Shown here piece by piece: positions 19,735 through 60,107 of a stretch of DNA of 64,000 bases (positions within the stretch are counted from its first letter, which is position 1; the number at the start of each line of letters is the position of its first letter). The position numbers and the translations under genes are program-made. The notes beneath the pieces were generated by a model. It had not been told where the DNA came from, searched no databases, and saw only the letters and a program-made list of their open reading frames with translations. The stretch is taken from the NCBI GenBank assembly GCA_028712375.1, contig JAQTQG010000001.1:110126-174125 (forward strand), in the 5' to 3' direction. This DNA is from Candidatus Omnitrophota bacterium. GTDB lineage: Bacteria > Omnitrophota > Gorgyraeia > Gygaellales > Profunditerraquicolaceae.

Positions 19735-19762
19735 CCGGTTTAAAAGGTATGGAAAGCTGAAT

Positions 19763-21025
19763 ATGGATAAGAATAAAATTATAAAATATTGCGATAATGC
19801 AATAATGGTTTTTTTGTGTTTGTCAATTTTTTGCCTTCCTTTTTCAAAGGCGGCCCTGGAAAGCTTTCTTTGGTCAGCGATAGTAATCTTTGTTGCTAAG
19901 AGGATCCTGGGTTATCGGGGCAGTTGTTTTCGGGGGATGTTCCCCCAGACCCCGCTAAATAAGGTTCTGGGTATATTTTGTGCGGTTAATGTATTGTCAG
20001 TAATCTTTAGCGTCAATTTAGGATTATCACTGCGGGGTTTATTAGGCAAAGAATTTAAGTTCTTGGCTATATTTTTTATATTAACCGAGATTATTAATAG
20101 TAAAGAGCGCTTGCGTAACATTCTTATTGCAATCGTTGCTTCAGCAGCGTTGATTATCGCGGATGCGTGGGTACAATATTTTAGAGGGTTTGATTTTTTA
20201 AGAAGTTATCAGTATTCCCGCCTTACTGCTTCTTTTTCTGCGGCAAACGGATTGGCTGCCTGGTTAGTTATGGTTATTCCTTTGGTGACTGGTGTTTTTC
20301 TTTGGGTAAAAGTTATATACAGAAAGCTAAGGATTTCATTATTGGTAATGATTTTTCTTTTGTTTATTTGTTTGCTATTAACTTATTCCCGCGGTGCATG
20401 GCTAGGAATAATGTTGGCAGGAATTTTTATGAGTTTTTATATTTTAAAGAACTCTGATGCAAAAGCAAAAATCCGTTACTTAAGTTTTATTATTTGTTTA
20501 ATAATAGTATTTTTATTGACTTCAAAATTACTGAACATTAGTATGCGTAAGGTGGATAAAGTTAATTTTGATTCTGGGCAGACAGTTGGGGAACGCATAA
20601 AATCAATTGTTAATATAAATAGAGGGGCCAGCCTGGTTAGGCTTAATCTTTGGAAAGAAGCTTTAATGATTATCCGGGATTATCCTTTGACCGGCTGTGG
20701 AGTGAATACTTACTCAATTGTGGCCCGTAGTTACAAAGTTTCTGAAAGCGGCGGCATATATCCGCATAATTCATTTCTTCAGAAAGCTGCAGAAACAGGT
20801 TTATTAGGTTTATTTGTTTTTCTCTGGCTTATCGTTCAATTTTTTTGGGTAAGTTTCCAGAGCTTGAAACAAAATAAAAACATGCTGGTACTCGGGTTGT
20901 TATCAGGAATTTTAGCGTTTTTGGTGCAGGCTTTTTTCGATAACCACTTATATTCTTTACAGCTTGTGGTTTTGTTCTGGTTTATTTTAGGTTTAACGAT
21001 TGCGGTAATTAATCTGGAAACTTAA
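19763..21025 (+). CDS. O-antigen ligase/polymerase family membrane protein (Wzy/WaaL-like)
   Basis: About 420 aa from the ATG at 19763 (the track ORF at 19706 overlaps wecA). Many TM helices and a large loop with YSRGAWLG-type segment typical of the Wzy_C domain. Confidence 0.55.
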   Translation: MDKNKIIKYCDNAIMVFLCLSIFCLPFSKAALESFLWSAIVIFVAKRILGYRGSCFRGMFPQTPLNKVLGIFCAVNVLSVIFSVNLGLSLRGLLGKEFKFLAIFFILTEIINSKERLRNILIAIVASAALIIADAWVQYFRGFDFLRSYQYSRLTASFSAANGLAAWLVMVIPLVTGVFLWVKVIYRKLRISLLVMIFLLFICLLLTYSRGAWLGIMLAGIFMSFYILKNSDAKAKIRYLSFIICLIIVFLLTSKLLNISMRKVDKVNFDSGQTVGERIKSIVNINRGASLVRLNLWKEALMIIRDYPLTGCGVNTYSIVARSYKVSESGGIYPHNSFLQKAAETGLLGLFVFLWLIVQFFWVSFQSLKQNKNMLVLGLLSGILAFLVQAFFDNHLYSLQLVVLFWFILGLTIAVINLET

Positions 21026-21051: not shown

Positions 21052-21828
21052 ATGAAGGTAGTGATTCTGGCAGGCGGCAGAGGCACAAGGATTAGTGAAG
21101 AAACAGAAGTTTTGCCCAAGCCCATGGTGGAGATCGGCGGCAAGCCGATGATCTGGCATATTATGAAGCTGTATTCTCATTATGGTTTTAATGATTTTAT
21201 CATCTGCCTGGGATACCGTGGGTACATGATTAAAGAGTATTTCTCCCATTATTTTATGCATATGAGCGATTTAACCATTGATTTATCTAAAAATAAAACC
21301 AGGATTCATACTACGGTTTCTGAGCCCTGGAAGATTACTTTGGTGGATACGGGTTTAGAAACAATGACTGGCAGCAGGCTTAAAAGGGTGAAGAAATATA
21401 TTGGTAAGCAGCCTTTTCTATTGACTTATGGCGATGGACTGGCGGATATTAATATGAAAAAACTAGTTGAATTCCATAAGAAAAATAAAAGGCTGGCTAC
21501 TTTAACTGCGATACAGAATCTCGGCCGGTTTGGGGTTTTAGATATTGTTTCTGGCAGTAAAGTTTCTTCTTTTCTGGAGAAACCCAAAGGTGAAGGAGGT
21601 TGGATCAACGGCGGTTTTTTTGTCCTTGAGCCGGAGATATTTAATTATATAGATAATGATGATACCGTGGTTTGGGAGAATGAACCTTTGGAAAATCTGG
21701 CAAAGCAAGGCAAGCTAAGCGCTTATAAGCATGCTGGTTTTTGGGGTTGTATGGATACCTTAAGAGATAAGATGAATTTTGAAAAAATCTGGCAATCCGG
21801 AAATGCTCCTTGGAAGGCTTGGAAGTGA
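21052..21828 (+). CDS. rfbF: Glucose-1-phosphate cytidylyltransferase
   Basis: 258 aa. MKVVILAGGRGTRISEET..PKPMVEIGGKPMIWHIM matches the RfbF/DdhA N-terminus almost residue for residue. GGGGAGG RBS upstream. Confidence 0.85.
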   Translation: MKVVILAGGRGTRISEETEVLPKPMVEIGGKPMIWHIMKLYSHYGFNDFIICLGYRGYMIKEYFSHYFMHMSDLTIDLSKNKTRIHTTVSEPWKITLVDTGLETMTGSRLKRVKKYIGKQPFLLTYGDGLADINMKKLVEFHKKNKRLATLTAIQNLGRFGVLDIVSGSKVSSFLEKPKGEGGWINGGFFVLEPEIFNYIDNDDTVVWENEPLENLAKQGKLSAYKHAGFWGCMDTLRDKMNFEKIWQSGNAPWKAWK

Positions 21829-21833
21829 CCGCT

Positions 21834-22817
21834 ATGAATAATAAATTCTGGAAAAATAAAGTCGTTCTGGTTACGGGTTTTGAAGGTTTCTTAGGTTCCA
21901 ATCTAACTAAGTCGATTATTTCTTCCGGGGCAAAAGTTATCGGTTTGGATATTAAAACTTTTCGTAAACAAACTATTTTTTGCGCTCAAGATTATGAAAA
22001 AATAATTGTTTATAAGGGTAGCGTTGATAACCGCAGTTTAATCAGGGATATTTTCCGTAAGCATCCAATTGACATAATTTTTCATTTAGCTGCGGAAGCG
22101 ATTGTCAGCCGGAGCTACCAAAATCCACTTAAAGCTTTTGAATCTAACATTACCGGAACCTGGGAAATTTTGGAGGCTGTCCGCAAATACGGGAAAGTGC
22201 AGGCGGTTGTCGTGGCTTCCAGTGATAAGGCTTACGGCAGCCATAAAAAACTTCCTTATCGTGAAGACGCTCCTTTGATCGCTAACCATCCTTATGATGT
22301 TTCTAAAAGCTGCGCGGATTTGATCGCTAATACTTATTTGCATACTTATGATTTACCGGTGGCTATCACCCGCTGCGGTAATATCTACGGGCCGGGTGAT
22401 TTTAATTTTAGCCGGCTTATACCTGATGCAATGAGAAACTTAGCTTTAAATAAACAACTAAAGATACGCAGTGATGGAAAATTTGTGCGCGATTATGTTT
22501 ATGTTGAGGATATCGTTGCCGGTTATCTGCAAATAGCTGAGTTGTTAGCCAGGCGCAAGATTCCCGGTGATGCCTTTAATTTAAGCGATGAGCAGCCATT
22601 GACCGTGATTGGATTATTAAAAGAGATAAACCTGGCTTTGCCTGGAGCTAAGAAGTTAAAATATAAAATTATGAATACCGCCCGCTATGAAATTAAAAAA
22701 CAGTATCTTTCTTCAACGAAAGCCCGCCGCATTCTAGGTTGGAAGCCCAACTATACTTTAAAGGAAGGGCTGCGTAAAACGGGTCAGTGGTACGTGCAAT
22801 ATTTTAAACAGATATGA
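21834..22817 (+). CDS. rfbG: CDP-glucose 4,6-dehydratase
   Basis: N-terminus from ATG 21834 (MNNKFWKNKVVLVTGFEGFLGS) parallels DdhB (FWQGKRVFVTGHTGFKGSWL). YDVSK catalytic motif. Directly downstream of rfbF. Confidence 0.65.
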   Translation: MNNKFWKNKVVLVTGFEGFLGSNLTKSIISSGAKVIGLDIKTFRKQTIFCAQDYEKIIVYKGSVDNRSLIRDIFRKHPIDIIFHLAAEAIVSRSYQNPLKAFESNITGTWEILEAVRKYGKVQAVVVASSDKAYGSHKKLPYREDAPLIANHPYDVSKSCADLIANTYLHTYDLPVAITRCGNIYGPGDFNFSRLIPDAMRNLALNKQLKIRSDGKFVRDYVYVEDIVAGYLQIAELLARRKIPGDAFNLSDEQPLTVIGLLKEINLALPGAKKLKYKIMNTARYEIKKQYLSSTKARRILGWKPNYTLKEGLRKTGQWYVQYFKQI

Positions 22818-23554
22818 AACTATATTTTTTAGGAACAAGCGGTTGGTATGATACGGCTTTAGGCAATACGCTTTCGGTTTTACTGGATACAAAACAGGCT
22901 TATATTGTTTTTGACGCTGGAGGGGGTTTTTATAAGCTGGATAGATATGTAAAAGAGGAAAAACCGGTGATTGTCTTGCTTAGCCATTTCCATTTGGACC
23001 ATATTAGCGGTTTACATGCTTTAGCGAAATTTAATTTTACTCAAGGCATAAAAATATTGGGCCCTCAAGGCATAAAGAAGCTATTTAACCTTTTAATTAA
23101 TGCCCCTTATTCTATGCCGGTTAATAAACTGAAGACTAAATTAGTGGTGGGGGAATTTTTGAATAGCTTAAAATTGCCGGTAGATATTAAATATAAGGAA
23201 CTTCGCCATGTTGATGCCTGTTATGGGTATCGGGTCTCGACGGATAATAAAACCGTAGTTTTTTGCACAGATACCGGTCCTTGCAGAAATTTAAATGCTT
23301 TGGCGCAAGGAGCGGATGTTTTAATTGCGGAATCATCTTTACCTGCCGGCAGGATAGATAACCGTTGGCCGCATCTTAACCCTGAGCAGGCGGCTGTAGC
23401 TGCTAAGCAGGCAGGGGTTAAGAAATTGATTTTGACGCATTTTGATTCCGGTGTTTATACTAAATTAAAGGATAGGGCACAAGCTGGTAGAAGCGCTAGA
23501 AAAGTATTTAAAAATACTTTGGTTAGCTATGATGGCTTGGAGCTGGCTATATAA
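22814..23554 (+). CDS. MBL-fold metallo-hydrolase (RNase Z/PhnP-like phosphodiesterase fold)
   Basis: 246 aa. HFHLDHISGL metal-binding motif. C-terminal LTHFD. Confidence 0.6.
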   Translation: MKLYFLGTSGWYDTALGNTLSVLLDTKQAYIVFDAGGGFYKLDRYVKEEKPVIVLLSHFHLDHISGLHALAKFNFTQGIKILGPQGIKKLFNLLINAPYSMPVNKLKTKLVVGEFLNSLKLPVDIKYKELRHVDACYGYRVSTDNKTVVFCTDTGPCRNLNALAQGADVLIAESSLPAGRIDNRWPHLNPEQAAVAAKQAGVKKLILTHFDSGVYTKLKDRAQAGRSARKVFKNTLVSYDGLELAI

Positions 23555-23555
23555 G

Positions 23556-24533
23556 ATGAATCTTACCGCGATTTTAAAAAATAAACGGTGTTTTAAGTTG
23601 GTTTGCGGTGCCGGCAATGAGGACGCTGTGGAAGTAGAGAAATTGGTGGCGGTTTATGCTAAAGCCGGCGCTAATTATTTTGATCTTTCAGCCAGAGAAG
23701 ATATTGTCCGCGCTGCTAAGCGGGGTTTGGAGAGGGTAATTCCGAAAGGTAAGCCAACTAACTATTTTTTTAATGTCAGCGTTGGAATCGCCGGTGATCC
23801 GCATGTGCGCAAGGCTTTAATTACCGGGCAAAAATGTAAAGCCTGCGGCCTTTGTCAAAAAGTCTGCCAGCAAAAAGCGATTTTACCCGAAGGAAATAAA
23901 TATGCCGTGATTAAAACACGCTGTATTGGTTGTGGAGCGTGTGCTGAAGTTTGCCCGGTAGCAGCAATTTCGTTTACCACAGAGAATAAAGATTTAAATT
24001 TAGTGTTGCCTCCGTTAGTTAAGCTGGGGCTGGATTCCTTGGAGTTGCACGCTGTAACGGATGATGAAGAAACTGCTTATGCTCAGTGGCTGGCGATGAA
24101 TAAGATCTTTCCCGGTATTTTAAGCCTTTGCCTTGACCGTTCTCATTTGGGAGATAAGCAATTGATCGCACGTATTAAGCGTTTTATCGGCAGCAGGAAT
24201 GATTTTACTACAATAATTCAAGCTGATGGCGCGCCGATGAGCGGAGGGGATGATCGCTGCAATACTACTTTGCAGGCTTTAGCTACTGCGGATATTGTAA
24301 ATAAAGCCAAACTGCCGGTTTGGTTGCTTATTTCCGGAGGTACAAATAGTAAGACTGCTAAGCTGTCCAGATTATTTGAAATTAATGCCCAAGGTGTGGC
24401 GATTGGTTCGTTTGCCCGTAAGATTATCAGGAAATATATTGACCGGAGTGATTTTCTGGAAAATAAAAAAGTATTTAATCAGGCCTGCAAGATCGCTAAA
24501 CAGCTGGTTGATAAATCTTTAAAGTATCTATGA
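23556..24533 (+). CDS. Uncharacterised protein with two 4Fe-4S ferredoxin-type cluster motifs inserted in a TIM-barrel-like scaffold
   Basis: Two CxxCxxCxxxCP motifs (CKACGLCQKVC and CIGCGACAEVCP). No recognisable flavin or NAD motif. Family not identified. Confidence 0.45.
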   Translation: MNLTAILKNKRCFKLVCGAGNEDAVEVEKLVAVYAKAGANYFDLSAREDIVRAAKRGLERVIPKGKPTNYFFNVSVGIAGDPHVRKALITGQKCKACGLCQKVCQQKAILPEGNKYAVIKTRCIGCGACAEVCPVAAISFTTENKDLNLVLPPLVKLGLDSLELHAVTDDEETAYAQWLAMNKIFPGILSLCLDRSHLGDKQLIARIKRFIGSRNDFTTIIQADGAPMSGGDDRCNTTLQALATADIVNKAKLPVWLLISGGTNSKTAKLSRLFEINAQGVAIGSFARKIIRKYIDRSDFLENKKVFNQACKIAKQLVDKSLKYL

Positions 24534-25285
24534 TCAGCTTGTCTTCACCTTCCTGGAAGATTGAATCAATTGAGGCTGTCCTTTTTGATAAGGACGGCAC
24601 ATTAATCGACAGCCATATATATTGGGGCAGGATCATTCAAAAAAGAAGCCGGGCGCTGATTAAGATGTTGAACCTTAAAGATGAAGTGCATCCTGTTCTT
24701 TGCCAGAAAATGGGGTTTTCCCTGGAAAGGAAGATTTTGTTGCCTGAGGGTCCGATCGCCCTGGTCAGCCGCGAAAAAGTAATTGCAATACTTCTGGATT
24801 TTTTAATCAAGCAGGGCGTAGCGGTTACTTTTGGCCAGATAGACAGCTTATTTATAGAAGTCCACTCTGATTTTTTAAATGAGATTAATAGCTATATAAA
24901 AATATTGCCGGGTGTCGAAGAGTTTCTGAAAAAAATCAAGGATAAAAAAATTAAGACAGCGGTAGTGACTACTGATAGCATTAAGAATACCCGGGAGATA
25001 GTGAAATTCCTGAATATCGACAAATATTTCGATGTGCTTTTAGGTAAAGAAGCAACGCCCTTACCTAAAATAAGTGGTGAGCCCGCGTTGATTGCGCTAA
25101 GGCAGTTAGACCTAGAGCCTGATTTGGCTATCGCCATTGGTGATTCTGCGATGGATATTACGATGGCTAAGCAAGCGCATTTAAAGGCGGCAGTTGGGGT
25201 GGCTTTAGGGCAGGTGCCTTTCGAAGCATTAAAAAAAGAAACTGCCTTTGTTGTTAAGGGGTATGATGAATTAAGCATAAATTAA
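24530..25285 (+). CDS. HAD-superfamily hydrolase (subfamily IA phosphatase-like)
   Basis: 251 aa. Motif I VLFDKDGTL and C-terminal IGDSAMDI motif. Confidence 0.65.
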   Translation: MISLSSPSWKIESIEAVLFDKDGTLIDSHIYWGRIIQKRSRALIKMLNLKDEVHPVLCQKMGFSLERKILLPEGPIALVSREKVIAILLDFLIKQGVAVTFGQIDSLFIEVHSDFLNEINSYIKILPGVEEFLKKIKDKKIKTAVVTTDSIKNTREIVKFLNIDKYFDVLLGKEATPLPKISGEPALIALRQLDLEPDLAIAIGDSAMDITMAKQAHLKAAVGVALGQVPFEALKKETAFVVKGYDELSIN

Positions 25286-25292
25286 TTTACAA

Positions 25293-27014
25293 ATGAAAAT
25301 TAAAATCATTGATTGCACAATCCGGGATGGCGGGCATTTAAACAAGTGGCAGTTTCAGGACCGCTTAGTAAGATCCGCTTATTTTGCGGCGCAAAAAGGC
25401 CGGGTGGATTATTTTGAGATTGGTTATAAAAATGATCCGGCTAAAAGCGGTTTGGGCGCTTATGGGTATTGTGATGAACAGCAGATAAGCGGGCTTTTTA
25501 AATGTTCTGCAGAATGTAAGCTGCTTTTTATGCTGGATGCAGGTAAATATACCGGATATGAAATTCCCGATTGCAAGGAAGGTAAAACCCCTTTTTCAGG
25601 AGTAAGAATTGCCGCTTACCCTTATGAGGCCGGTATTGCAATTGATTTGGTTGAGAAGATGCATAAAAAAGGCTATGAAGTTTTTCTTAACCTGATGGCC
25701 AGCAGTGAATGGACGGATAAAGATTTGGCAGTGTTAAAGAGTTGGAAGCATAAAGATGCGCTTAAGGCGGTTTATTTTGCGGATAGTTTCGGCGCATATG
25801 GCCCGGCTGAAATATCTGCGCTTATTAAAAAATTAAAAAAAATCGGGTTTAAGCATATCGGATTTCATGCTCATAATAATTTACAGATGGCATTTGCTAA
25901 TACGATGCATGCGATTAAAGAAGGGGCTACTTACGTGGATGCTTCTATTTATGGTATGGGCAGAGGCGCGGGAAATTTACCGGTTGAAATTCTTTTGAGC
26001 TATCTGAGTAAGCATAAAAATAATGAGTATAATGTTGTTCCTTATTTGGATGTGATCCAGAGGTTTTTTGTCCGGCTTTTCGAGCAATACCGCTGGGGGT
26101 ATTCGCTAAATTCCCTTTTAGGCGGGATAAGCAACGTGCATCCTTATTATATCGATGAACTTTTTCATTCACATAATTATACGATTGAGGAAATTTGGAA
26201 TATTTTAGAAGTGATTAAAGAAAAATGCCCGATTTCTTTCTCGGGGGAGAAGCTAAAGCGCGCGCTGGGGGAAAGGTTTTATATCCCGAATGTTACGCAA
26301 ACCCGCCGCACTATTGCGGAAATCGAGAAAGACCTGAAAATTATCCCGGCCAAAGATAGTTTTTTATTGCGTAGGCTTGCGTTTAAAAATAAACATAAGG
26401 GCAGAAGTTTTTTAATTATTGCCAATGGTCCTTCAATTGTCAAGTATAAGGATAAAATTAATGAGTTGATCAGTAAAAAGAATTTAATTACTATTGGCTG
26501 TAATTTTCTAAATGAAATTTATGTTCCAGATTACCATTTGTTTGTAAATAAAAGAAGGTTTCTTAAGTATGTTTCTTCTGTATTAAAAAAGAGCATATTG
26601 CTGGTGCCTACTTTTTTCGGGAAACGCCTGGTTACGGAAAATTATAGCGGAGATTATGAATTTATTCAGATTGCTGCGGAACATAATCTTAAGGCCTTGC
26701 CGGTAAAAGGAATCCGCCAGCAGGCTGCATATCTTAACGTGGCTACCGCTGCCATCCTGGCTGCTTTTCAGATGGGGGCGCGTGAAATTATGGCGGTGGG
26801 AATGGATGGATATCAAAGCCAGGAGGCCGGAAAAGTGGTTTATTTTTATAATGAAAAAGATGTCCCCGATGACAAAATTACTGCCTCTGTGCGTTATGAG
26901 AACATGGCAATTGAATTAAAAAGAGTGGCGGATTTTTTACATGAGCAGGGCATATCGTTTTCCATTATTACTCCTACATCTCATAAGAGATATTATCAGG
27001 ATATTTTAGTTTAA
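25293..27014 (+). CDS. Fusion protein: N-terminal DmpG-like class II (DRE-TIM) pyruvate aldolase plus C-terminal DUF115/Maf-like (MptE-like) domain
   Basis: 573 aa. N-terminal IIDCTIRDGGH and FHAHNNLQMAFANT..GMGRGAGN match the 4-hydroxy-2-oxovalerate aldolase (DmpG/MhpE) metal-binding signatures. C-terminal FLIIANGPS..ITIGCNF resembles the DUF115 domain of motility-associated-factor putative glycosyltransferases. Confidence 0.5.
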   Translation: MKIKIIDCTIRDGGHLNKWQFQDRLVRSAYFAAQKGRVDYFEIGYKNDPAKSGLGAYGYCDEQQISGLFKCSAECKLLFMLDAGKYTGYEIPDCKEGKTPFSGVRIAAYPYEAGIAIDLVEKMHKKGYEVFLNLMASSEWTDKDLAVLKSWKHKDALKAVYFADSFGAYGPAEISALIKKLKKIGFKHIGFHAHNNLQMAFANTMHAIKEGATYVDASIYGMGRGAGNLPVEILLSYLSKHKNNEYNVVPYLDVIQRFFVRLFEQYRWGYSLNSLLGGISNVHPYYIDELFHSHNYTIEEIWNILEVIKEKCPISFSGEKLKRALGERFYIPNVTQTRRTIAEIEKDLKIIPAKDSFLLRRLAFKNKHKGRSFLIIANGPSIVKYKDKINELISKKNLITIGCNFLNEIYVPDYHLFVNKRRFLKYVSSVLKKSILLVPTFFGKRLVTENYSGDYEFIQIAAEHNLKALPVKGIRQQAAYLNVATAAILAAFQMGAREIMAVGMDGYQSQEAGKVVYFYNEKDVPDDKITASVRYENMAIELKRVADFLHEQGISFSIITPTSHKRYYQDILV

Positions 27015-27032: not shown

Positions 27033-27797
27033 ATGAAAAACATCAAACAAACTTTAAAAGAGCGCCTGCAGGCTGGAAAAAATGTTTTGGGGACCTGGTG
27101 TCTTTTGCCTTCTGAGGCGGTAGTGAATGTTATTGCTAAAGCCGGGCTTGATTTTGTGTTGATTGATTTAGAGCATGGGGCAATCAGCCCGGAATGTGCT
27201 TTACGGATGGTGATGGCAGCGCAGGCTGATGGGTCGGAAGCGGTAATCCGGGTTTCTTGCAATGATGAATCGGAAGTGGCTAAAGCGCTAGATATCGGAA
27301 GTAATGGAGTGATCGTACCGCATATTGAAACACCCCGGGAATGCAGAGATGCTTTGTCGTTTATTAAGTATCCTCCTTCAGGGGTACGGGGGTTTTCTCC
27401 TTATGTCAGGTCGGGCGGTTATGCCCAGACTAAAGGGTATGTTTCCAAAGAAAACCAGCGTATTCTTTCAGGTATCATTATCGAAGGCTTAGAAGGTATT
27501 GTCAATATTGATTCAATTATTGCCGATACCCGCCTGGATTTAGTTTATATCGGGGCTTATGATATCTCGGTAGCATTGGGTGTGCCCGGAGAAATTAGTA
27601 ATCCGAAGGTAGTAAAAATTATTAAGGAATGTGTAAAAAAGATTCGGGCCCATAAAAAAGCTGCCGGGGCTCTGTTTCATTCAGAGCAGGAGTTAAGGTT
27701 ATTTAAGTCTATCGGCATACAGTTTTTATGTTATCGGGTTGATTCAGATATTCTTTACAGTGCATTCAATACCATCGTAAATAATTTTGGGAGATAA
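27033..27797 (+). CDS. HpcH/HpaI family class II pyruvate-dependent aldolase
   Basis: 254 aa. Colinear with 2-keto-3-deoxy-acid aldolases (VLIDLEHG, GVIVPHIET, GVRGFSP). AAGGAG RBS. Confidence 0.75.
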   Translation: MKNIKQTLKERLQAGKNVLGTWCLLPSEAVVNVIAKAGLDFVLIDLEHGAISPECALRMVMAAQADGSEAVIRVSCNDESEVAKALDIGSNGVIVPHIETPRECRDALSFIKYPPSGVRGFSPYVRSGGYAQTKGYVSKENQRILSGIIIEGLEGIVNIDSIIADTRLDLVYIGAYDISVALGVPGEISNPKVVKIIKECVKKIRAHKKAAGALFHSEQELRLFKSIGIQFLCYRVDSDILYSAFNTIVNNFGR

Positions 27798-27805
27798 GTT
27801 ATAAG

Positions 27806-29611
27806 ATGATTAGACTTTCGGAGTATGTGATTAAATTTCTGGCTAAAGAAAAGATTAAGCATGTTTTTATGGTTTCCGGAGGCGGCGGGATGTTTTTAAT
27901 CGATTCTTTAGGCCGTAGCAAGGATATTCAGTATGTTTGTAATCACCATGAGCAGGCTTGCGCGATGAGCGCAGAAGGTTATCAGCGGGTTACCGGTAAT
28001 CTGGGCGCGGCTTTAGTTACTACCGGCCCGGCAGGGACTAATGTGATTACGGGGTTAATGTGTTCATGGAACGATTCTATTCCGGTAATTATTATTTCCG
28101 GGCAGGTAGCTTCAAGATTTTTAATTGGAAATACAGGTTTGCGCCAAAGGGGTACGCACGAGGCTAATATTACTAAGATTGTTGAATCCATAACAAAATA
28201 TGCGGTTACGGTAACTGATGCCGGCATGATTCGCTATCATTTGGAAAAAGCGCTATATTTGGCGCGCCATGGCCGGCCAGGACCGGTATGGCTGGATATA
28301 CCTCTGGATATTCAGGCGGCAATGATTAATGAAGATACGCTAGCGCATTTTTCTGCGGAAAAAGAAAATTTTATTGGTGCCTCTGAAACTGATGAAACAA
28401 AAATTAAAGAAATCTGCGGGCTTTTGTCAGCATCTAAACGCCCGGTGATTATTGCGGGAAACGGAATCCGGATTGCCGGCATGCAGGAAGAGTTTATCCG
28501 CTTTATTGAAACTTATCGTATTCCCGTAGTGACTACTAAGCTGGGTTTTGACCTTATTTATGATGAGCATGAACTTTTGGCCGGCAGGATAGGAACCTAT
28601 GGCCAGCGGGCCGGAAATTTTGCGGTGCAAAACGCGGATTTTGTTTTAGTACTCGGTTCGCGCCTGGCGTTTACCACTATTGGCTATCAAACAGAATGGT
28701 TTGCCCGCGGGGCAAAAAAGGTAGTTGTGGATATTGATCAGCAACAGCTGAAATATCCGAATATAAAAATTGATATATCTGTCCGGGCCAATCTTAAAGA
28801 TTTTTTTCCTATCTTGAACAAAGCGCTTAAAGCTAAAGCTCTATCTGTCGGCGATTGGATTAGCTGCTGCCAAAATTGGCGTAAGAAATACCCGGCGGTA
28901 TTACCGCAATGGCGCAAAGAAAAAAAATATGTTAATCCTTATTATTTTTTTGAAGCGCTTTCTGAAAAGCTGGGCCATGACGATATAGTAATTACGGATC
29001 AAGGGGCTACTTTTTACTGCTCAACTCCGGCATTTAAATTAAAAAAAGGCCAACGCCTGTTTACTAACGGGGGTTTTTCCCCGATGGGGTTTGGGCTTCC
29101 CGCGGCAATCGGGGCATGTTTTGCTAATAATAAAAAACGGGTTATTTGTGTGCATGGTGATGGTGGGCTGGAATTAAATATTCAGGAGTTGCAGACAATT
29201 GTGCATTATAAATTACCGGTCAAGCTTTTTGTATTTAATAATCAGGGGTATTTGAGTATAAAACATACGCAAAACGCCTACTTTAATGGTTTTTTTGTGG
29301 GTTCTGACCCATCAAGCGGAGTAAGTTGCCCGGATACGGTTAAAATTGCCCGGGCTTACGGCATAGCTTCTTTAAGTATTAAAAATCATAAACAAATGCA
29401 TGTTCAGATTAGAAAAGCATTAAAGGCTAAAGGAGCGATGATTATCGATGTAACATTGCATCCGATGCAGCCATTTGCTCCCCGGGTTATTTCGGAGCGT
29501 AAATCAAGCGGGGTAATGGTATCTAAGCCCCTAGAAGATATGTACCCTTTTTTAAACCGGAAAGAGTTTTTATCCAATATGATTGTTGCTCCTGTTGAGG
29601 ATAAAAATTAA
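27806..29611 (+). CDS. Thiamine diphosphate-dependent enzyme of the acetolactate synthase large-subunit family (YerE-like candidate branched-chain sugar synthase)
   Basis: 601 aa. TPP N-terminal Pyr domain (HEQACAMSAEGY), central domain, and C-terminal PP domain with the GDGG motif (VHGDGGLELNIQEL). Confidence 0.75.
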   Translation: MIRLSEYVIKFLAKEKIKHVFMVSGGGGMFLIDSLGRSKDIQYVCNHHEQACAMSAEGYQRVTGNLGAALVTTGPAGTNVITGLMCSWNDSIPVIIISGQVASRFLIGNTGLRQRGTHEANITKIVESITKYAVTVTDAGMIRYHLEKALYLARHGRPGPVWLDIPLDIQAAMINEDTLAHFSAEKENFIGASETDETKIKEICGLLSASKRPVIIAGNGIRIAGMQEEFIRFIETYRIPVVTTKLGFDLIYDEHELLAGRIGTYGQRAGNFAVQNADFVLVLGSRLAFTTIGYQTEWFARGAKKVVVDIDQQQLKYPNIKIDISVRANLKDFFPILNKALKAKALSVGDWISCCQNWRKKYPAVLPQWRKEKKYVNPYYFFEALSEKLGHDDIVITDQGATFYCSTPAFKLKKGQRLFTNGGFSPMGFGLPAAIGACFANNKKRVICVHGDGGLELNIQELQTIVHYKLPVKLFVFNNQGYLSIKHTQNAYFNGFFVGSDPSSGVSCPDTVKIARAYGIASLSIKNHKQMHVQIRKALKAKGAMIIDVTLHPMQPFAPRVISERKSSGVMVSKPLEDMYPFLNRKEFLSNMIVAPVEDKN

Positions 29612-29653: not shown

Positions 29654-30703
29654 ATGCATTTAATTGTTAAGGAAGACTTAGAATTCATAACCGCAACTGG
29701 TATCCATTGGGATAAGCTGGAAGGCAGGAATATCCTGGTTACCGGAGCCAATGGCTTTTTGCCCGCATATATGATTGAAACAATTTTGTTTTTAAATGAA
29801 CATCGATTTAAAAAGAAAGCTAAAATTTTTGCTTTGGCACGCAATAAGGAGAGGGTCCAAAAGAGGTTTTCCGGTTACCGCGGAAATAAAAATATTGTTT
29901 TTATTATTCAAGATGTTTGCGCTCCGCTTAAAATTCATAAAAAAATGGATTTTATTATTCATGCTGCCAGCCAGGCTAGCCCAAAGTTTTATGGTTCGGA
30001 TCCGGCAGGGACTATTTCGGCTAATACGCTTGGCACAGCAAATCTTTTAGCTTTAGCCGCTAAACATAAAAGCCAGGGGTTTCTGTTCTTTAGCAGTGGC
30101 GAAGTATACGGGGAGGTAGCTGTTGACCAGGTTCCTATTAGAGAAGATACTTATGGCTTAGTGGATCCAATGCTTTTGCGTTCTTGTTATGCAGAAGGTA
30201 AGCGTGCCGGTGAAAATATGTGTGTTTCTTGGAGCCATCAATATGGAATACCGGTAAAAATCATCCGCCCTTTTCATACCTATGGGCCGGGAATGCGGCT
30301 GGATGATGGAAGGGTGTTTGCGGATTTTGTCTGCGATGTTGTGGCAGGCAGGGATATTATAATGAAAAGCGACGGCAGCGCAGTGAGGGCCTTTTGTTAT
30401 CTGGCTGACGCAGTTGCCGGGTTTTTTACGGTACTTTTGGAAGGCAGTTCTGCGCAAGCTTATAATGTTGGAAATGATGAGGGGATTAGCATAGCCGGCC
30501 TGGCTAAGATATTGGTTGATTTGCGCCCGGAAAAACATTTAAAGGTTATTCAGAGGGAAAGTGATTGCATCGGCGGGTATATAAAAAGCCGGATACCGGT
30601 GAGCGTGCCGGATACCACTAAGATCAGGCGGTTAGGTTGGAAACCGTTTTATTCCATAAAAGAAGGGTTTGGGCGTACGGTAAGGAGCTTTGAAAGTGAG
30701 TAA
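29654..30703 (+). CDS. NAD(P)-dependent epimerase/dehydratase family reductase (YerF-like candidate)
   Basis: 349 aa. VTGANGFL Rossmann motif. YAEGK catalytic motif. Confidence 0.6.
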   Translation: MHLIVKEDLEFITATGIHWDKLEGRNILVTGANGFLPAYMIETILFLNEHRFKKKAKIFALARNKERVQKRFSGYRGNKNIVFIIQDVCAPLKIHKKMDFIIHAASQASPKFYGSDPAGTISANTLGTANLLALAAKHKSQGFLFFSSGEVYGEVAVDQVPIREDTYGLVDPMLLRSCYAEGKRAGENMCVSWSHQYGIPVKIIRPFHTYGPGMRLDDGRVFADFVCDVVAGRDIIMKSDGSAVRAFCYLADAVAGFFTVLLEGSSAQAYNVGNDEGISIAGLAKILVDLRPEKHLKVIQRESDCIGGYIKSRIPVSVPDTTKIRRLGWKPFYSIKEGFGRTVRSFESE

Positions 30704-31619
30704 GTTAGTAGAAATTGAAAAACAATATAAAACCGGCTGCGTTGGCAAAGAAACCTACATAAACTTAATGCATAAACGCCACCTTATGCTTGAGGATTAT
30801 CCGAAGTTGATTAAGAATAAAAATGTTGCTGCCATTGAAATTAGCCAAGGTAAGATTATCTTAAAGACAAAAGATGGTGTTAGCTTATTCTGTGATTTTT
30901 TAGATAAACGGCATATATCTATGGAGATTTTAAATTTTGGTAATTATGAATCTGCCGAACTACAAATGATTAAGCGTTTTTTAAAAAAAGACAGCGTGAT
31001 ATTGGATATTGGCGCAAATATCGGATGGTATTCGATTAATCTTTCCAGAAGTGTTCCGCGGGGCAGGATAATTGCTTTTGAACCAATTCCTAAAACCTAC
31101 AATTGCTTAATTAAGAATGTTGCTTTGAACCAGTTGCCTAATATCAAGGCATATAATATCGGATTATTCAATAAATCAGGCCGCTTTAATTTTTATTATA
31201 ACCGTTCCTACACCGGAGCGACATCTTTGAAGGACATTATTCATAAGCACGATACGGTCTTAATTAAATGCCGGGTGGAAAAATTAGATGATTTTTTGAA
31301 AAAAATAAAGATTGGGCAGGTAGATTTTATTAAATGTGATGCGGAGGGTGCTGAAAAATTTGTTATTGAAGGCGGGTTAAACTTAATTAAAAAGTATAAA
31401 CCGGTTATTTTTGTGGAATTATTAAGAAAGTGGGCGGCTAAATTTGACTATCATCCGAATAGCGTAATTAGCCTTCTTAAACAGATAGGGTACGAATGCT
31501 ACGTAATTAATAAGGCAAAACTTAAGAAAATTAGAGAAATCACGGAAACTACGCAGCAAACTAATTTTTATTTTTTACCTGTTTCTAAGTATTCTAAATT
31601 ATTAAGCAGGTTAACCTGA
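30696..31619 (+). CDS. FkbM-family methyltransferase
   Basis: LDIGANIGWYS motif of the FkbM family. The track start is TTG at 30690. GTG at 30696 is better spaced from the TAAGGAG RBS. Confidence 0.6.
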   Translation: MSKLVEIEKQYKTGCVGKETYINLMHKRHLMLEDYPKLIKNKNVAAIEISQGKIILKTKDGVSLFCDFLDKRHISMEILNFGNYESAELQMIKRFLKKDSVILDIGANIGWYSINLSRSVPRGRIIAFEPIPKTYNCLIKNVALNQLPNIKAYNIGLFNKSGRFNFYYNRSYTGATSLKDIIHKHDTVLIKCRVEKLDDFLKKIKIGQVDFIKCDAEGAEKFVIEGGLNLIKKYKPVIFVELLRKWAAKFDYHPNSVISLLKQIGYECYVINKAKLKKIREITETTQQTNFYFLPVSKYSKLLSRLT

Positions 31620-32932
31620 TGGCTATGGCGAAAACACTAAGAAAAAAAATCCAGGCAGATGTAAAACGTTTATGCAGATTATCTTTTGCAAAAGCAAAGT
31701 TTGTTCCCGGCCAGACACCGGTTAGTTATGCCGGCAGGGTTTATGATGAAAAAGAAATGTTTAATTTAGTTGATGCTTCCCTGGATTTTTGGTTAACTGC
31801 CGGCAGATACGCTGCAGAGTTTGAAAAAAGGCTCGCAGAGTTCATTAAAGTAAAATATTGCCTTTTAACTAATTCCGGTTCTTCGGCGAATTTGCTGGCG
31901 ATTTCCGCCTTAACTTCACCCTTGTTAAAAGAACGGCAACTGAAAAAAGGCGATGAAGTTATTACAACTGCTTGCGGTTTTCCCACTACGCTCAATCCTA
32001 TTCTACAAAATAATCTTGTGCCTGTATTTATCGATGTGGAGCTGGGGACATATAACATACGGGCGGAGTTGGTTGAGCGGGCGATTACTAAAAAGACCAA
32101 AGCCATATTTGTCCCGCACACTTTAGGCAATCCGGCAAACATTGCATTGATTCTAAAAATAGCTAAAAAATATAATCTTTGGTTTATAGAAGATAATTGC
32201 GATGCTTTGGGGTCAATTTATAAAGGCAGGCTTACCGGTTCATTCGGCGATATCGCTACTTGCAGTTTTTATCCTGCGCACCACATTACGATGGGTGAAG
32301 GAGGGGCAGTCTTAACCAGTAACCCGCTCTTAAAAAGAATAATTATGTCTTTTCGCGACTGGGGAAGGGATTGTTATTGCGGCCCCGGCCTGGATAATAC
32401 CTGTCGGAAAAGATTTTCTCAAAAATTCGGTAATCTTCCGCAGGGTTATGATCATAAATATGTTTATTCGCATATTGGTTATAATTTAAAAGTAACGGAT
32501 ATGCAGGCGGCAGTAGGAGTGGCACAGTTGGATAAGTTAGGAGGTTTTATTAAGTCCAGGAGGGAGAATTTTTCATTTCTCAAAAAATCCCTTAAAGGTT
32601 ATCAAAAGTATTTGGTTTTACCGGAGCCTTCAGAAGAATCAATGCCCAGCTGGTTTGGTTTTCCTATTTTAGTTAAGGAAAACGCCCCTTTTACCAGGAA
32701 TGGTCTGGTAACTTATCTGGAGCAGCGTAAAATTGCTACGCGTATGCTTTTTGGAGGGAATTTAACCAAGCAGCCGGCATATGAAGATACCAGATACAGG
32801 ATTTTCGGATCGTTGCAGCATACTGATATGGTGATGAACAATCTTTTCTGGATTGGAGTCTACCCCGGGCTTAAGCTTGAACAGTTAACCTATATGAAAA
32901 ATACAATTATTGGCTTCCTAGAAAAAATATGA
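31619..32932 (+). CDS. rfbH: CDP-6-deoxy-D-xylo-4-hexulose-3-dehydrase (E1; RfbH/DdhC family)
   Basis: 437 aa, DegT fold. The PLP lysine position reads YPAHHITMGEGG (His instead of Lys), as in E1. It also has DCYCGPGLDNTC, a CxCx7C iron-sulfur motif characteristic of E1. Confidence 0.8.
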   Translation: MAMAKTLRKKIQADVKRLCRLSFAKAKFVPGQTPVSYAGRVYDEKEMFNLVDASLDFWLTAGRYAAEFEKRLAEFIKVKYCLLTNSGSSANLLAISALTSPLLKERQLKKGDEVITTACGFPTTLNPILQNNLVPVFIDVELGTYNIRAELVERAITKKTKAIFVPHTLGNPANIALILKIAKKYNLWFIEDNCDALGSIYKGRLTGSFGDIATCSFYPAHHITMGEGGAVLTSNPLLKRIIMSFRDWGRDCYCGPGLDNTCRKRFSQKFGNLPQGYDHKYVYSHIGYNLKVTDMQAAVGVAQLDKLGGFIKSRRENFSFLKKSLKGYQKYLVLPEPSEESMPSWFGFPILVKENAPFTRNGLVTYLEQRKIATRMLFGGNLTKQPAYEDTRYRIFGSLQHTDMVMNNLFWIGVYPGLKLEQLTYMKNTIIGFLEKI

Positions 32933-60106: not shown

Positions 60107-60107
60107 G

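What the first reader, a model, noticed from the sequence alone, without database searches (positions are those of the whole stretch)
25293..27014. Unusual domain fusion: DmpG-type aldolase fused to a DUF115 (Maf/MptE-like) domain
The N-terminal 300 aa carry the DmpG/MhpE metal-binding signatures (RDGGH, HAHNNL...GMGRGAGN). The C-terminal 250 aa resemble the DUF115 domain found in Campylobacter/Helicobacter motility-associated factors, which are thought to transfer nonulosonic acids onto flagellin. A covalent fusion of a sugar-acid-forming aldolase to a putative transferase domain would couple synthesis and transfer. I am not aware of this architecture being characterised.
Basis: partly seen in the sequence, partly recalled or inferred. 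Interest (0 to 1): 0.6.

Follow-up and report, generated by a model that had tools for sequence, protein, structure and literature searches.

The report
Aldolase fused to sialyltransferase-like domain
This is a real, widespread but uncharacterised two-domain enzyme: a pyruvate aldolase that makes a sugar-acid building block, joined to a diverged sialyltransferase-like domain. Here it sits in a pathway for an unusual branched cell-surface sugar, not in a flagellin sialic-acid-type pathway.

Summary
Window 25293-27014 (+) is an intact 573-aa ORF with an N-terminal DmpG-like metal aldolase (aa 1-300), a helical linker and a C-terminal MptE-like/DUF115 domain (aa 366-573). It is not a frameshift artefact. 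Uninterrupted homologues occur in hundreds of species genomes across many bacterial and some archaeal phyla.

Family-wide, this aldolase, a CMP-sugar synthetase and the GT42/Maf-like domain recur together as fusions or adjacent genes. Stand-alone domains have a CMP-synthetase nearby in 32 of 32 well-flanked loci. That fits "make, activate, transfer" of a 3-deoxy-2-ulosonic acid.

The window's own subfamily is different. It has a CMP-synthetase in 0 of 23 loci and a YerE-like ThDP carboligase in 18 of 23. The window also encodes CDP-glucose synthase, a 4,6-dehydratase and RfbH. This is the published acyl-branched-sugar scheme (erwiniose/caryophyllose type), and there are no flagellin or nonulosonate genes.

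In this subfamily the C-terminal domain carries Asn482 and Tyr535, where the other subfamily has Thr and His. Thr482 matches a GT42/Maf-type residue. His535 does so only through a moderate-confidence alignment. The subfamily's profile no longer detects GT42 enzymes. The aldolase role is well supported. The C-terminal role is unresolved.

The parts
25293..27014 (+). Whole fusion ORF, 573 aa, including the stop codon
   Evidence: ORF; 100% match to a Candidatus Omnitrophica MAG protein, and full-length homologues
25293..26192 (+). N-terminal class II (DRE-TIM, DmpG/BphI/ErwI-like) pyruvate aldolase barrel, aa 1-300. The metal ligands D12, H192 and H194 and the catalytic R11 are invariant
   Evidence: (alignments to 3dxi, 8ih7 and 1nvm)
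26193..26387 (+). Helical linker, aa 301-365. It is conserved within the subfamily and modelled at pLDDT 65-80
26388..27011 (+). C-terminal MptE-like/DUF115 (GT42/Maf superfamily) alpha/beta domain, aa 366-573. Motifs: ANGPS (377-381), N404, R422, GMDGY (503-507), TPT (560-562). Subfamily-specific residues: N482 and Y535
23529..24533 (+). LdpA-like protein (DUF561 barrel with a 2x[4Fe-4S] insert). It is the most constant neighbour of the aldolase. Its role is unknown; supplying the aldehyde is a guess
24530..25285 (+). HAD-IA phosphatase-like protein, part of the conserved module
27033..27797 (+). Second pyruvate aldolase, HpcH/HpaI/GarL type
27806..29611 (+). YerE-like ThDP-dependent carboligase
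   Evidence: best PDB match is 8rph at E 1.6e-135; 8rph is JanthE, a YerE-like enzyme
29654..30703 (+). SDR, the candidate side-chain or 4-keto reductase (YerF/ErwF role)
   Evidence: The role is inferred from PMC9306805
21052..21828 (+). Glucose-1-phosphate cytidylyltransferase (makes CDP-glucose)
   Evidence: TIGR02623, 415.5 bits against a cut-off of 300
21810..22817 (+). CDP-glucose 4,6-dehydratase-like SDR
   Evidence: the best hit is TIGR02622 at 218 bits, below its 278 cut-off. Also
31619..32932 (+). RfbH (E1), the CDP-6-deoxy-4-hexulose 3-dehydrase that gives CDP-4-keto-3,6-dideoxyglucose
   Evidence: NF011936, 713.9 bits against a cut-off of 423
30690..31619 (+). FkbM-family methyltransferase, possibly for tailoring

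Best explanation
The protein is the keto-acid-forming enzyme of an acyl-branched-sugar pathway in a surface-glycan (LPS/O-antigen-type) cluster of an Omnitrophota bacterium.

Well supported, by homology and context rather than biochemistry: the N-terminal domain is a metal-dependent class II pyruvate aldolase. It condenses pyruvate with an aldehyde to give a gamma-hydroxy-alpha-keto (3-deoxy-2-ulosonic) acid.

Inferred from context and the published scheme: this acid, possibly extended or complemented by the adjacent HpcH-type aldolase, is the donor for the adjacent YerE-like ThDP carboligase. That enzyme decarboxylates it and grafts the acyl chain onto C4 of CDP-4-keto-3,6-dideoxyglucose, which is made by the neighbouring CDP-glucose synthase, 4,6-dehydratase and RfbH. 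An SDR then reduces the side chain. The result is a CDP-activated long-branched 3,6-dideoxyhexose of the erwiniose/caryophyllose type.

Supported by sequence and fold comparison: the C-terminal domain derives from the cytidine-nucleotide-sugar-binding GT42/Maf/MptE-like fold. In the sister subfamily and in stand-alone relatives it always accompanies a CMP-sugar synthetase. There it most likely transfers the CMP-activated ulosonic acid.

Inferred, low confidence: in the window's subfamily the CMP route has been replaced by the ThDP/CDP-hexose route. Position 482 is Asn and position 535 is Tyr, where subfamily B has Thr and His. My best guess is that the domain kept cytidine-nucleotide binding and now works on the CDP-linked sugar, most likely as the transferase for the finished CDP-branched sugar.
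For: Aldolase: HMGL-like 78.5 bits. Best NCBIfam hits are 4-hydroxy-2-oxovalerate aldolases over aa 2-254. 3dxi matches at E 2e-51 and DmpG-type structures at about 1e-20, with R11, D12, H192 and H194 aligned to the catalytic Arg and the metal ligands. These residues are invariant in 61 homologues.

Pathway: G1P cytidylyltransferase and RfbH both score above their curated cut-offs, and the 4,6-dehydratase is the best hit for 21810. The ThDP neighbour scores 456 bits to JanthE (8rph, a YerE-like enzyme) against 273 bits for the next entry, 5ahk, deposited as an acetolactate synthase II large subunit. PMC9306805 shows that ErwE, MMAR_2332 and MyGE use aldolase-made gamma-hydroxy-2-oxo acids, and that DmpG-type (ErwI) or HpcH-type (MMAR_2331) aldolases sit beside them.

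Conserved module across 80 loci: LdpA-like 47-48, HAD 43, HpcH 30-31, ThDP 19. ThDP and CMP-synthetase are mutually exclusive: 19 loci have ThDP only, 36 have the CMP-synthetase only, none has both. Subfamily A: ThDP 18 of 23, CMP-synthetase 0 of 23. The same module lies between two flagellin genes in C. botulinum.

C-terminal domain: PF01973 at E 5.8e-7. The model has pLDDT 90.3. The best Foldseek PDB match is the archaeal MptE kinase 8sd5. The family profile hits GT42 sialyltransferases at E 2e-5 to 1e-3 across the MGAxxIYxxGxDGY motif. The GNGPS motif also lines up with Cst-II, but only in a weak, non-significant stretch. Stand-alone relatives have a CMP-synthetase nearby in 32 of 32 well-flanked loci, a DmpG-type aldolase in 17 (median gap 15 bp) and an HpcH-type aldolase in 11. 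An aldolase-CMP-synthetase fusion exists in L087. The C-terminal domain is under selection in subfamily A: mean identity 48%, with N404, R422, D505, Y519, E521, Y535, T560 and T562 invariant.
Against: No biochemistry exists for any family member. The aldehyde substrate is unknown, and no DmpF/ErwJ-type aldehyde dehydrogenase is present. I cannot say why two aldolases, an Fe-S/DUF561 protein and a HAD are needed.

For the C-terminal transferase idea: no GT42-fold enzyme is known to use a CDP-hexose. The subfamily-A profile finds no GT42 at E <= 10. Position 482 is Asn where Cst-II has Thr131; by spacing, the catalytically required Ser of Maf falls at the same position. Position 535 is Tyr where GT42 probably has its SYHSK His; that alignment has posterior probability of only about 0.6-0.7.

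Other glycosyltransferases in the cluster could do the transfer: several GT2 genes, GT4, and a possible GT-C in related loci. The domain is about as conserved across phyla, and across very different acceptors (flagellin in Clostridium, LPS here), as a small-molecule enzyme would be. The top structural hit is a kinase, not a transferase.
Confidence: 0.4

Rival explanations
1. The aldolase makes a nonulosonic or ulosonic acid, which is CMP-activated by an enzyme encoded elsewhere, and the C-terminal domain transfers it to flagellin or a glycan.
For: This is the best reading for subfamily B and for the stand-alone relatives. A CMP-synthetase is nearby in 36 of 47 and 32 of 32 loci. NeuB is present in only 6 of 47 subfamily-B loci, so the aldolase is the likely synthase. 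The subfamily-B C-terminal profile hits GT42 sialyltransferases almost exclusively (9 of 10 PDB hits) and has Thr482 and His535. Maf and GT42 enzymes share this fold and use CMP-ulosonic acids.
Against: The window has no CMP-synthetase, NeuB or flagellin gene. Subfamily A has a CMP-synthetase in 0 of 23 loci, against ThDP in 18 of 23. Asn482, Tyr535 and the loss of GT42 profile similarity all argue against it.
Confidence: 0.1
2. The C-terminal domain is a cytidine-nucleotide-sugar hydrolase, a functional analogue of PseG, LegG or NeuC. It frees an aldose from a CDP-sugar and hands it to the fused aldolase as the aldehyde substrate. This would give a nine-carbon 3-deoxy-ulosonic acid.
For: It would make the two fused domains catalyse consecutive steps. 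The canonical nonulosonate trio is hydrolase, synthase and CMP-synthetase (general knowledge of the neuABC and pse/leg pathways). That pattern matches the triad equally well. CDP-glucose pathway genes lie nearby in 12 of 23 subfamily-A loci and 9 of 47 subfamily-B loci. The high cross-phylum conservation suits a small-molecule enzyme.
Against: There is no precedent in this fold. The constant partner of the stand-alone domain is the CMP-synthetase (32 of 32), not NDP-sugar genes or any one synthase type. Most subfamily-B loci show no NDP-hexose genes within 10 kb.
Confidence: 0.2
3. The C-terminal domain is an MptE-like (pyro)phosphokinase. It phosphorylates the aldehyde precursor or the aldol product, and the neighbouring HAD removes the phosphate later. 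This is the logic of animal sialic-acid synthesis: kinase, synthase, phosphatase.
For: The top Foldseek PDB hit is M. jannaschii HPPK/MptE (8sd5, E 2.6e-5, TM about 0.5). HAD presence tracks the C-terminal domain among LdpA-containing loci (38/2/0/7, Fisher p 6e-7).
Against: That correlation is confounded, because aldolase-only loci also lack HpcH, ThDP and the CMP-synthetase. C. botulinum has the fusion but no HAD. Stand-alone relatives have a HAD in only 1 of 32 loci. Sequence profiles are closer to GT42 than to MptE (E 2e-5 against 0.011).
Confidence: 0.07
4. In this subfamily the C-terminal domain is no longer catalytic. It would be a nucleotide-binding, scaffolding or oligomerisation module, for example docking the aldolase to the ThDP ligase or sensing CDP-sugar.
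For: Position 482 is Asn and position 535 is Tyr, and GT42 profile similarity is lost. Aldolase-only relatives of about 326 aa exist and evidently work without the domain.
Against: Many polar residues remain invariant in subfamily A (N404, R422, D505, E521, Y535, T560, T562, H564). That is more than a scaffold usually needs.
Confidence: 0.15
5. The fusion is an assembly or frameshift artefact that joins two genes.
For: None found.
Against: Uninterrupted homologues occur in hundreds of independent genomes and metagenomes, and the linker is conserved.
Confidence: 0.01

Closest known systems
ErwI (Pectobacterium atrosepticum), a BphI/DmpG-type pyruvate aldolase of the erwiniose cluster, and the acyl-branched-sugar scheme of Steitz et al. 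2022 (PMC9306805)
   Same: A DRE-TIM class II pyruvate aldolase encoded next to a YerE-like ThDP carboligase, an SDR reductase and the genes for CDP-4-keto-3,6-dideoxyglucose. Its proposed job is to make the gamma-hydroxy-2-oxo acid donor.
   Different: ErwI works with an acylating acetaldehyde dehydrogenase (ErwJ), and none is present here. The window protein falls below the DmpG/MhpE equivalog cut-offs. It carries an extra 270-aa linker plus GT42-like domain. It also comes with an LdpA-like Fe-S protein, a HAD and a second, HpcH-type aldolase.
PDB 3dxi, 'putative aldolase' (structural genomics; from memory, the N-terminal domain of Bacteroides vulgatus BVU_2661)
   Same: The closest solved structure: E 2e-51 over aa 1-307. 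Same family of HOA-like DRE-TIM aldolases of unknown function.
   Different: It contains only the barrel. It has the RDGGY motif typical of subfamily B, not the RDGGH of the window. No function has been assigned.
GT42 sialyltransferases (Campylobacter Cst-I and Cst-II; 1ro7, 2p2v, 9c08)
   Same: The motif MGAxxIYxxGxDGY corresponds to Cst-II ALGYKEIYLSGIDFY. GNGPS and the terminal TP/SP strand also line up. The family profile reaches E 2e-5 and the subfamily-B profile about 5e-4.
   Different: The window's subfamily profile does not detect GT42. Thr131 is Asn482 here, and the SYHSK His is probably Tyr535. No CMP-sugar synthetase is encoded. The domain is fused to an aldolase.
Maf flagellin nonulosonic-acid glycosyltransferases (PF01973 central domain; 5mu5, CbMaf, GkMaf)
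   Same: Same Pfam family and a GT42-like donor site. In C. botulinum the fusion module lies in the flagellar glycosylation island.
   Different: Maf proteins are larger, with flanking domains, and act on flagellin using CMP-Pse, CMP-Leg, CMP-Neu5Ac or CMP-Kdo. No Maf structure was hit by any of the profiles. The window has no flagellin genes.
MptE (MJ1634), archaeal 6-hydroxymethyl-7,8-dihydropterin pyrophosphokinase (8sd5)
   Same: Best structural match for the C-terminal model (Foldseek E 2.6e-5, TM 0.49/0.53). It gives its name to PF01973.
   Different: Only 14% identity. The sequence profile matches just the N-terminal nucleotide loop (E 0.011). The genomic context has nothing to do with pterins.

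Membership tests
DmpG/MhpE/BphI 4-hydroxy-2-oxovalerate aldolase (equivalog) | Scores above the curated NCBIfam cut-offs (TIGR03217, 286 bits; PRK08195, 229 bits) | tested here: not met
   109.3 and 125.2 bits
DmpG/MhpE/BphI 4-hydroxy-2-oxovalerate aldolase (equivalog) | Catalytic Arg and the Asp/His/His metal ligands of the DRE-TIM barrel | tested here: met
   alignments: R11 and D12 in RDGGH, H192 and H194 in HAHNN; invariant in 61 sequences
DmpG/MhpE/BphI 4-hydroxy-2-oxovalerate aldolase (equivalog) | Partner acylating aldehyde dehydrogenase (DmpF/BphJ/ErwJ) encoded alongside, and a DmpG communication domain | tested here: not met
   No such gene or domain in any annotated window ORF. Pfam reports only HMGL-like for the N-terminal half
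Acyl-branched-sugar (YerE/ErwE-type) biosynthetic cluster | Genes for CDP-4-keto-3,6-dideoxyglucose: G1P cytidylyltransferase, 4,6-dehydratase and E1/RfbH | tested here: met
   No E3/RfbI reductase was found
Acyl-branched-sugar (YerE/ErwE-type) biosynthetic cluster | YerE-like ThDP carboligase adjacent to a pyruvate aldolase and an SDR | tested here: met
   (8rph, JanthE, 456 bits)
Acyl-branched-sugar (YerE/ErwE-type) biosynthetic cluster | The carboligase uses the aldolase product as donor, and a branched sugar is present in the glycan | not testable with these tools
   Needs enzymology and glycan structure determination
GT42 sialyltransferases | Detectable sequence similarity across the donor-binding motifs | tested here: inconclusive
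   A mixed profile (E 2e-5) and the subfamily-B profile detect GT42. The window's own subfamily profile does not
GT42 sialyltransferases | Thr131/Ser132-type donor contact and a catalytic His (Cst-II His188) | tested here: not met
   Asn482 and Tyr535 in subfamily A. The His alignment has moderate confidence only
GT42 sialyltransferases | CMP-activated ulosonic-acid donor available (a CMP-synthetase in the pathway) | tested here: not met
   none in the window, and 0 of 23 in the subfamily
Maf / PF01973 (MptE-like, DUF115) | Pfam gathering score of 34.6 bits | tested here: not met
   29.9 bits (32.5 for the isolated domain). E 5.8e-7, and relatives do pass, so superfamily membership is credible but the curated threshold is missed
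Maf / PF01973 (MptE-like, DUF115) | Flagellin and nonulosonate genes in the neighbourhood, and flanking Maf domains | tested here: not met
   Met only for the C. botulinum orthologue's location, and there without nonulosonate genes
MptE pterin pyrophosphokinase | Kinase activity and a pterin-pathway context | not tested
   Only fold similarity is available. The context is glycan biosynthesis

The most novel reading that the evidence does not exclude
The fusion marks a large, undescribed and NeuB-independent way of making activated 3-deoxy-2-ulosonic acids. Class II pyruvate aldolases (DmpG-type or HpcH-type, interchangeably) would act as the synthase, followed by a CMP-synthetase and a small GT42-like transferase. 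The system is present in hundreds of mostly uncultured bacterial and archaeal species and on very large viral contigs. In the window's branch the same keto acid would be diverted to a YerE-like ligase. The GT42-like domain would have been re-tooled (Thr to Asn, His to Tyr) into the first enzyme of this fold that works on a CDP-hexose, or into a channelling partner for the aldolase.
Probability: 0.25. Interest if true: 0.8.

Novelty: new variant of a known kind. Interest (0 to 1): 0.6.

Why it matters
Long acyl-branched sugars such as erwiniose, caryophyllose and gastriose, and the ulosonic acids, are major determinants of bacterial surface antigenicity. Their biosynthesis is known from only a handful of organisms. 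This family links the two chemistries through one keto-acid-forming module. It suggests that pyruvate aldolases replace PEP-dependent NeuB/KdsA-type synthases in many lineages. It also offers a natural experiment: the same GT42-like domain appears in a CMP-sugar context (Thr/His) and in a CDP-sugar/ThDP context (Asn/Tyr).

The system is directly testable. A cultured organism, Clostridium botulinum, carries the module in its flagellar glycosylation island. The aldolase and the YerE-like enzymes are also of practical interest as C-C bond-forming biocatalysts.

Tried and rejected
1. Frameshift or misassembly: rejected.
2. A genuine DmpG/MhpE catabolic aldolase: rejected. It falls below the equivalog cut-offs, has no DmpF partner, and sits in a glycan context.
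3. A nonulosonate (Pse/Leg/Neu) locus: rejected for the window. There is no NeuB and no CMP-synthetase by Pfam annotation or tblastn.
4. A specific HAD to C-terminal-domain link (kinase/phosphatase pair): the statistic is strong (p 6e-7) but confounded. It is contradicted by C. botulinum and by the stand-alone loci.
5. Literature searches for MptE-like or DUF115 plus aldolase, for 3DXI, and for aldolase plus flagellin glycosylation found nothing relevant.
6. The 2024 survey of more than 200 YerE-like clusters (Krug et al., Angew. Chem. e202403535) could not be read. It may already list clusters of this type.
8. The solved-structure search for the LdpA-like protein returned only ferredoxin-insert matches, so its barrel remains unassigned.
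9. The diverse stand-alone alignment (A4) was too variable for locus retrieval. A tighter subgroup (A5) worked.
Full report
**1. What is there**

Window 25293-27014 (+) is a single intact ORF of 573 aa.

Pfam gives a clear HMGL-like (DRE-TIM metallolyase) match: 78.5 bits against a cut-off of 29. It also gives a sub-threshold MptE-like/DUF115 match over aa 364-505 (29.9 bits against a cut-off of 34.6, E 5.8e-7). NCBIfam's best hits for aa 2-254 are the 4-hydroxy-2-oxovalerate aldolases, but far below their equivalog cut-offs.

The nearest solved structure is 3dxi, a structural-genomics 'putative aldolase' (E 2e-51 over aa 1-307). True DmpG-type aldolases follow at about 1e-20. The catalytic Arg and the Asp/His/His metal ligands are aligned.

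AlphaFold models show a TIM barrel (aa 1 to about 270), a helical linker (to about 365) and a compact alpha/beta domain. The full-length model has pLDDT 87.9. The C-terminal domain modelled alone has pLDDT 90.3 and pTM 0.89, with one floppy loop after the GMDGY motif.

**2. It is not an artefact and not rare**

A 100% identical protein is deposited from a Candidatus Omnitrophica MAG. The 120 best database homologues are 50-100% identical and nearly all 570-585 aa long (a few are fragments of 495-535 aa), and most carry both Pfam domains.

In one genome per species, at least 588 stretches encode a relative. Seventy of the best 80 loci have the C-terminal domain joined to the aldolase. They come from many bacterial phyla and two archaeal lineages. 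Both halves and the linker are conserved.

Ten loci (Gastranaerophilales/Melainabacteria and Brachyspira) encode an aldolase-only version of about 326 aa. They have no C-terminal-like sequence within 10 kb.

**3. Surroundings in the window**

All large ORFs are on the + strand. From about 0.2 to 45.9 kb they form one surface-glycan cluster. It contains GT2, GT4 and GT9 glycosyltransferases, two Wzy_C genes, a WecA-like gene, aminotransferases, methyltransferases and an AsnB-like gene. Housekeeping genes follow (priA, fmt, glycolysis, ETF). No flagellin, NeuB or CMP-sugar synthetase is present.

The immediate neighbours are:

- glucose-1-P cytidylyltransferase (415 bits against a cut-off of 300)
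- a CDP-glucose 4,6-dehydratase-like SDR
- an MBL-fold protein
- an LdpA-like Fe-S/DUF561 protein
- a HAD
- **the fusion**
- an HpcH/HpaI aldolase
- a ThDP enzyme
- an SDR
- an FkbM methyltransferase
- RfbH (714 bits against a cut-off of 423)

The ThDP enzyme's best solved relative by far is 8rph (456 bits). The next entry, 5ahk, is deposited as an acetolactate synthase II large subunit and scores 273 bits. 8rph is JanthE, a characterised YerE-like carboligase.

**4. The known framework**

Steitz et al. 2022 (PMC9306805) proposed how long acyl-branched sugars are made, tested the key enzymes with substrate analogues, and drew on earlier M. marinum knockouts. A pyruvate aldolase makes a gamma-hydroxy-2-oxo acid. 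This is DmpG/BphI-type ErwI together with the dehydrogenase ErwJ in Pectobacterium, and HpcH-type MMAR_2331 in M. marinum. A YerE-like ThDP enzyme then ligates the acid to CDP-4-keto-3,6-dideoxyglucose, and an SDR reduces the side chain.

The window encodes every element of that scheme. I therefore assign the N-terminal domain the ErwI-like role. What the scheme does not explain is the C-terminal domain, the LdpA-like protein, the HAD, and the need for two aldolases.

**5. Comparative genomics of the fusion**

Across 80 loci the conserved neighbours are LdpA-like (47-48), HAD (43), HpcH (30-31), 4,6-dehydratase-type SDRs, the cytidylyltransferase (22) and ThDP (19).

The family splits in two.

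- **Subfamily A** (42% identity or more to the window; 23 loci) has the order LdpA-HAD-fusion-(HpcH)-ThDP-SDR.
- **Subfamily B** (about 35% identity; 47 loci) has fusion-LdpA-HAD-HpcH followed by a PF02348 cytidylyltransferase of the CMP-Kdo/CMP-NeuAc synthetase family. It also has unannotated proteins of about 610-650 aa weakly related to the LIC13510 and BFO_1060 transferase families, often a B12-radical SAM enzyme, and sometimes a KDG-kinase-like PfkB.

ThDP ligase and CMP-synthetase are mutually exclusive. Nineteen loci have only ThDP, 36 have only the CMP-synthetase, none has both and 15 have neither. Subfamily A has ThDP in 18 of 23 and the CMP-synthetase in 0 of 23. Subfamily B has 1 of 47 and 36 of 47.

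NeuB-like genes occur in only 6 subfamily-B loci. The aldolases are therefore the likely ulosonic-acid synthases there.

In Clostridium botulinum a subfamily-A module lies between two flagellin genes. It comprises the cytidylyltransferase, an SDR, LdpA, the fusion, HpcH, ThDP, an SDR, RfbH-like DegT and a TagF-like gene, with no HAD.

**6. The C-terminal domain**

An exhaustive HMMER search of 1.84 billion representatives with aa 330-573 found only 264 relatives. Many are stand-alone proteins of 205-260 aa, and these hit PF01973, some above cut-off.

Invariant across fused and stand-alone forms are N404, G503, D505, G506, T560 and P561. G379, Y414, R422, M494, G495 and T562 are nearly invariant.

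A profile of the family hits GT42 sialyltransferases in the PDB (9c08 at E 2e-5; Cst-II at about 1e-3). The significant match covers 'MGAxxIYxxGxDGY', which corresponds to Cst-II 'ALGYKEIYLSGIDFY156'. The N-terminal 'GNGPS' also lines up with Cst-II, but only in a weak, non-significant stretch. The archaeal kinase MptE scores only E 0.011. Foldseek nevertheless ranks MptE (8sd5) first. Maf proteins, the best-known PF01973 members, are described as GT42-like in the donor site.

**7. Context of the stand-alone relatives**

In seven database loci and 86 further metagenomic or viral loci, the stand-alone gene is tied to a CMP-synthetase. Among the 32 loci with at least 4 kb on both sides:

| Neighbour | Loci of 32 | Note |
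|---|---|---|
| PF02348 CMP-synthetase | 32 | median distance 1.7 kb |
| DmpG-type aldolase of this family | 17 | median gap 15 bp |
| HpcH-type aldolase | 11 | |
| B12-radical SAM | 12 | |
| NeuB | 6 | |
| ThDP ligase | 0 | |
| HAD | 1 | |

In the split versions the order is usually GT42-like gene then aldolase (14 against 2). That is the reverse of the fusion. One locus has an aldolase-CMP-synthetase fusion (L087).

The three functions are therefore linked in several independent arrangements. The constant partner of the GT42-like protein is the CMP-synthetase, while the synthase type varies. This is best explained by a small sialyltransferase-like enzyme acting on a CMP-activated, aldolase-made ulosonic acid.

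**8. Why the window's protein differs**

Besides lacking any CMP-synthetase, subfamily A differs from B at a handful of fixed positions.

In the aldolase domain these are H15 (Tyr in B), Y109, P110 and F166. They probably reflect a different aldehyde.

In the C-terminal domain there are two:

- **Position 482** aligns with Cst-II Thr131. By spacing it also aligns with the Ser that is essential in CbMaf. It is Thr in 37 of 41 subfamily-B proteins and Thr or Ser in 28 of 33 stand-alone proteins, but Asn in 18 of 20 subfamily-A proteins.
- **Position 535** aligns with the His of the GT42 'SYHSK' segment, which from memory is the Cst-II general base His188. The HMM alignment supporting this has posterior probability of only about 0.6-0.7, so the match is tentative. 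The position is His in 36 of 41 subfamily-B proteins and Tyr in 20 of 20 subfamily-A proteins.

Consistently, a profile of subfamily-B C-terminal domains retrieves GT42 enzymes almost exclusively from the PDB: 9 of its 10 hits at E <= 10, the tenth being a weak SteA match at E 0.68. The subfamily-A profile, which includes the window, retrieves none even at E <= 10.

The subfamily-A domain is nevertheless clearly under purifying selection. Mean identity to the window is 48%, and many polar residues are invariant. I conclude that it is a re-tooled GT42-like domain.

**9. Mechanism and confidence**

- **High confidence (about 0.8):** the N-terminal domain is an active class II pyruvate aldolase that makes a 3-deoxy-2-oxo acid for glycan biosynthesis.
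- **Good confidence (about 0.65):** in this locus that acid feeds the YerE-like ligase to build an acyl-branched 3,6-dideoxyhexose.
- **Low confidence:** the role of the C-terminal domain.

Approximate ranking for the C-terminal role:

| Role | Confidence |
|---|---|
| Cytidine-nucleotide-dependent transferase now using the CDP-linked branched sugar | about 0.3-0.35 |
| Nucleotide-sugar hydrolase feeding the aldolase (PseG/NeuC analogue) | 0.2 |
| Non-catalytic binding or scaffold module | 0.15 |
| Classical CMP-ulosonate transferase with a distal synthetase | 0.1 |
| Kinase | 0.07 |

The roles of the LdpA-like Fe-S protein, the HAD and the second aldolase remain unexplained. An E3-type reductase for RfbH was not found.

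**10. Novelty**

The pathway type is known, and so are the two folds. I could not find any description of the following:

- the fusion itself
- its conserved LdpA/HAD/HpcH module
- the family-wide triad of aldolase, CMP-synthetase and GT42-like domain
- the clean ThDP-versus-CMP bifurcation with its correlated residue switches

There is a caveat. I rate the finding as a new variant of a known kind, of moderate-to-good interest and readily testable.

Noticed in passing
window 23529-24533: The LdpA-like protein (DUF561 barrel with two 4Fe-4S motifs) is the most constant neighbour of this aldolase family. It is present in 47 of 80 loci and 7 of 10 aldolase-only loci. Its barrel has no solved homologue and its role is unknown.
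   Followed up: partly
window 31619-32932 and the whole window: RfbH (E1) is present, but no E3/RfbI-type [2Fe-2S] flavoprotein reductase was seen. The electron donor for 3-deoxygenation is unidentified. Candidates are the LdpA-like Fe-S protein and the ETF pair at 59324-61310.
   Followed up: no
L087:9417-11186: A 589-aa fusion of an HMGL-like aldolase of this family with a PF02348 CMP-sugar-type cytidylyltransferase. It sits next to a HAD and a stand-alone GT42-like gene.
   Followed up: partly
L091 and L093 (IMG/VR contigs of 548 kb and 298 kb); L085, L086, L088, L089: Stand-alone GT42-like genes occur on very large viral contigs. They also occur on phage-like contigs with HNH and Lar-family genes, usually preceded by a TOD1_MUCI70-family gene and an unannotated ORF of about 145-170 aa, with a CMP-synthetase and an aldolase nearby. 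Viruses appear to carry this ulosonic-acid kit.
   Followed up: partly
window 59324-61310; L014, L016, L068: An ETF beta/alpha pair, with an N-terminal ferredoxin domain on alpha, lies in the window. It also lies beside the aldolase module in three Gastranaerophilales loci. This could be coincidence or a redox partner.
   Followed up: no
window 13177-15333: A 718-aa protein that combines a zinc-type alcohol dehydrogenase domain with a GFO/IDH/MocA oxidoreductase domain. This is another fusion in the same glycan cluster.
   Followed up: no
window 3993-5597: A 534-aa ORF with no Pfam or NCBIfam match, immediately upstream of a GT2 (5642-6601). Homologues of that GT2 follow the module in several related loci, where a PMT_2-like membrane protein of about 700 aa is also present. 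This may be a Gtr-like lipid-linked transfer system.
   Followed up: no
L029, L031, L033 (Brocadia and Flavobacteria MAGs): A third arrangement has the order: unannotated 640-aa protein, short PF02348 cytidylyltransferase, fusion, KDG-kinase-like PfkB. It lacks LdpA, HAD and HpcH.
   Followed up: partly
window 22814-23554: An MBL-fold hydrolase gene is inserted between the 4,6-dehydratase and the LdpA-like gene, but only in the four closest relatives.
   Followed up: no
window 19706-21025 and 36217-37452; 38021-38932 and 40308-41378: The single co-directional cluster of about 45 kb contains two Wzy_C/O-antigen-ligase-like genes and two GT9 heptosyltransferases. This suggests combined core and O-antigen assembly.
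   Followed up: no
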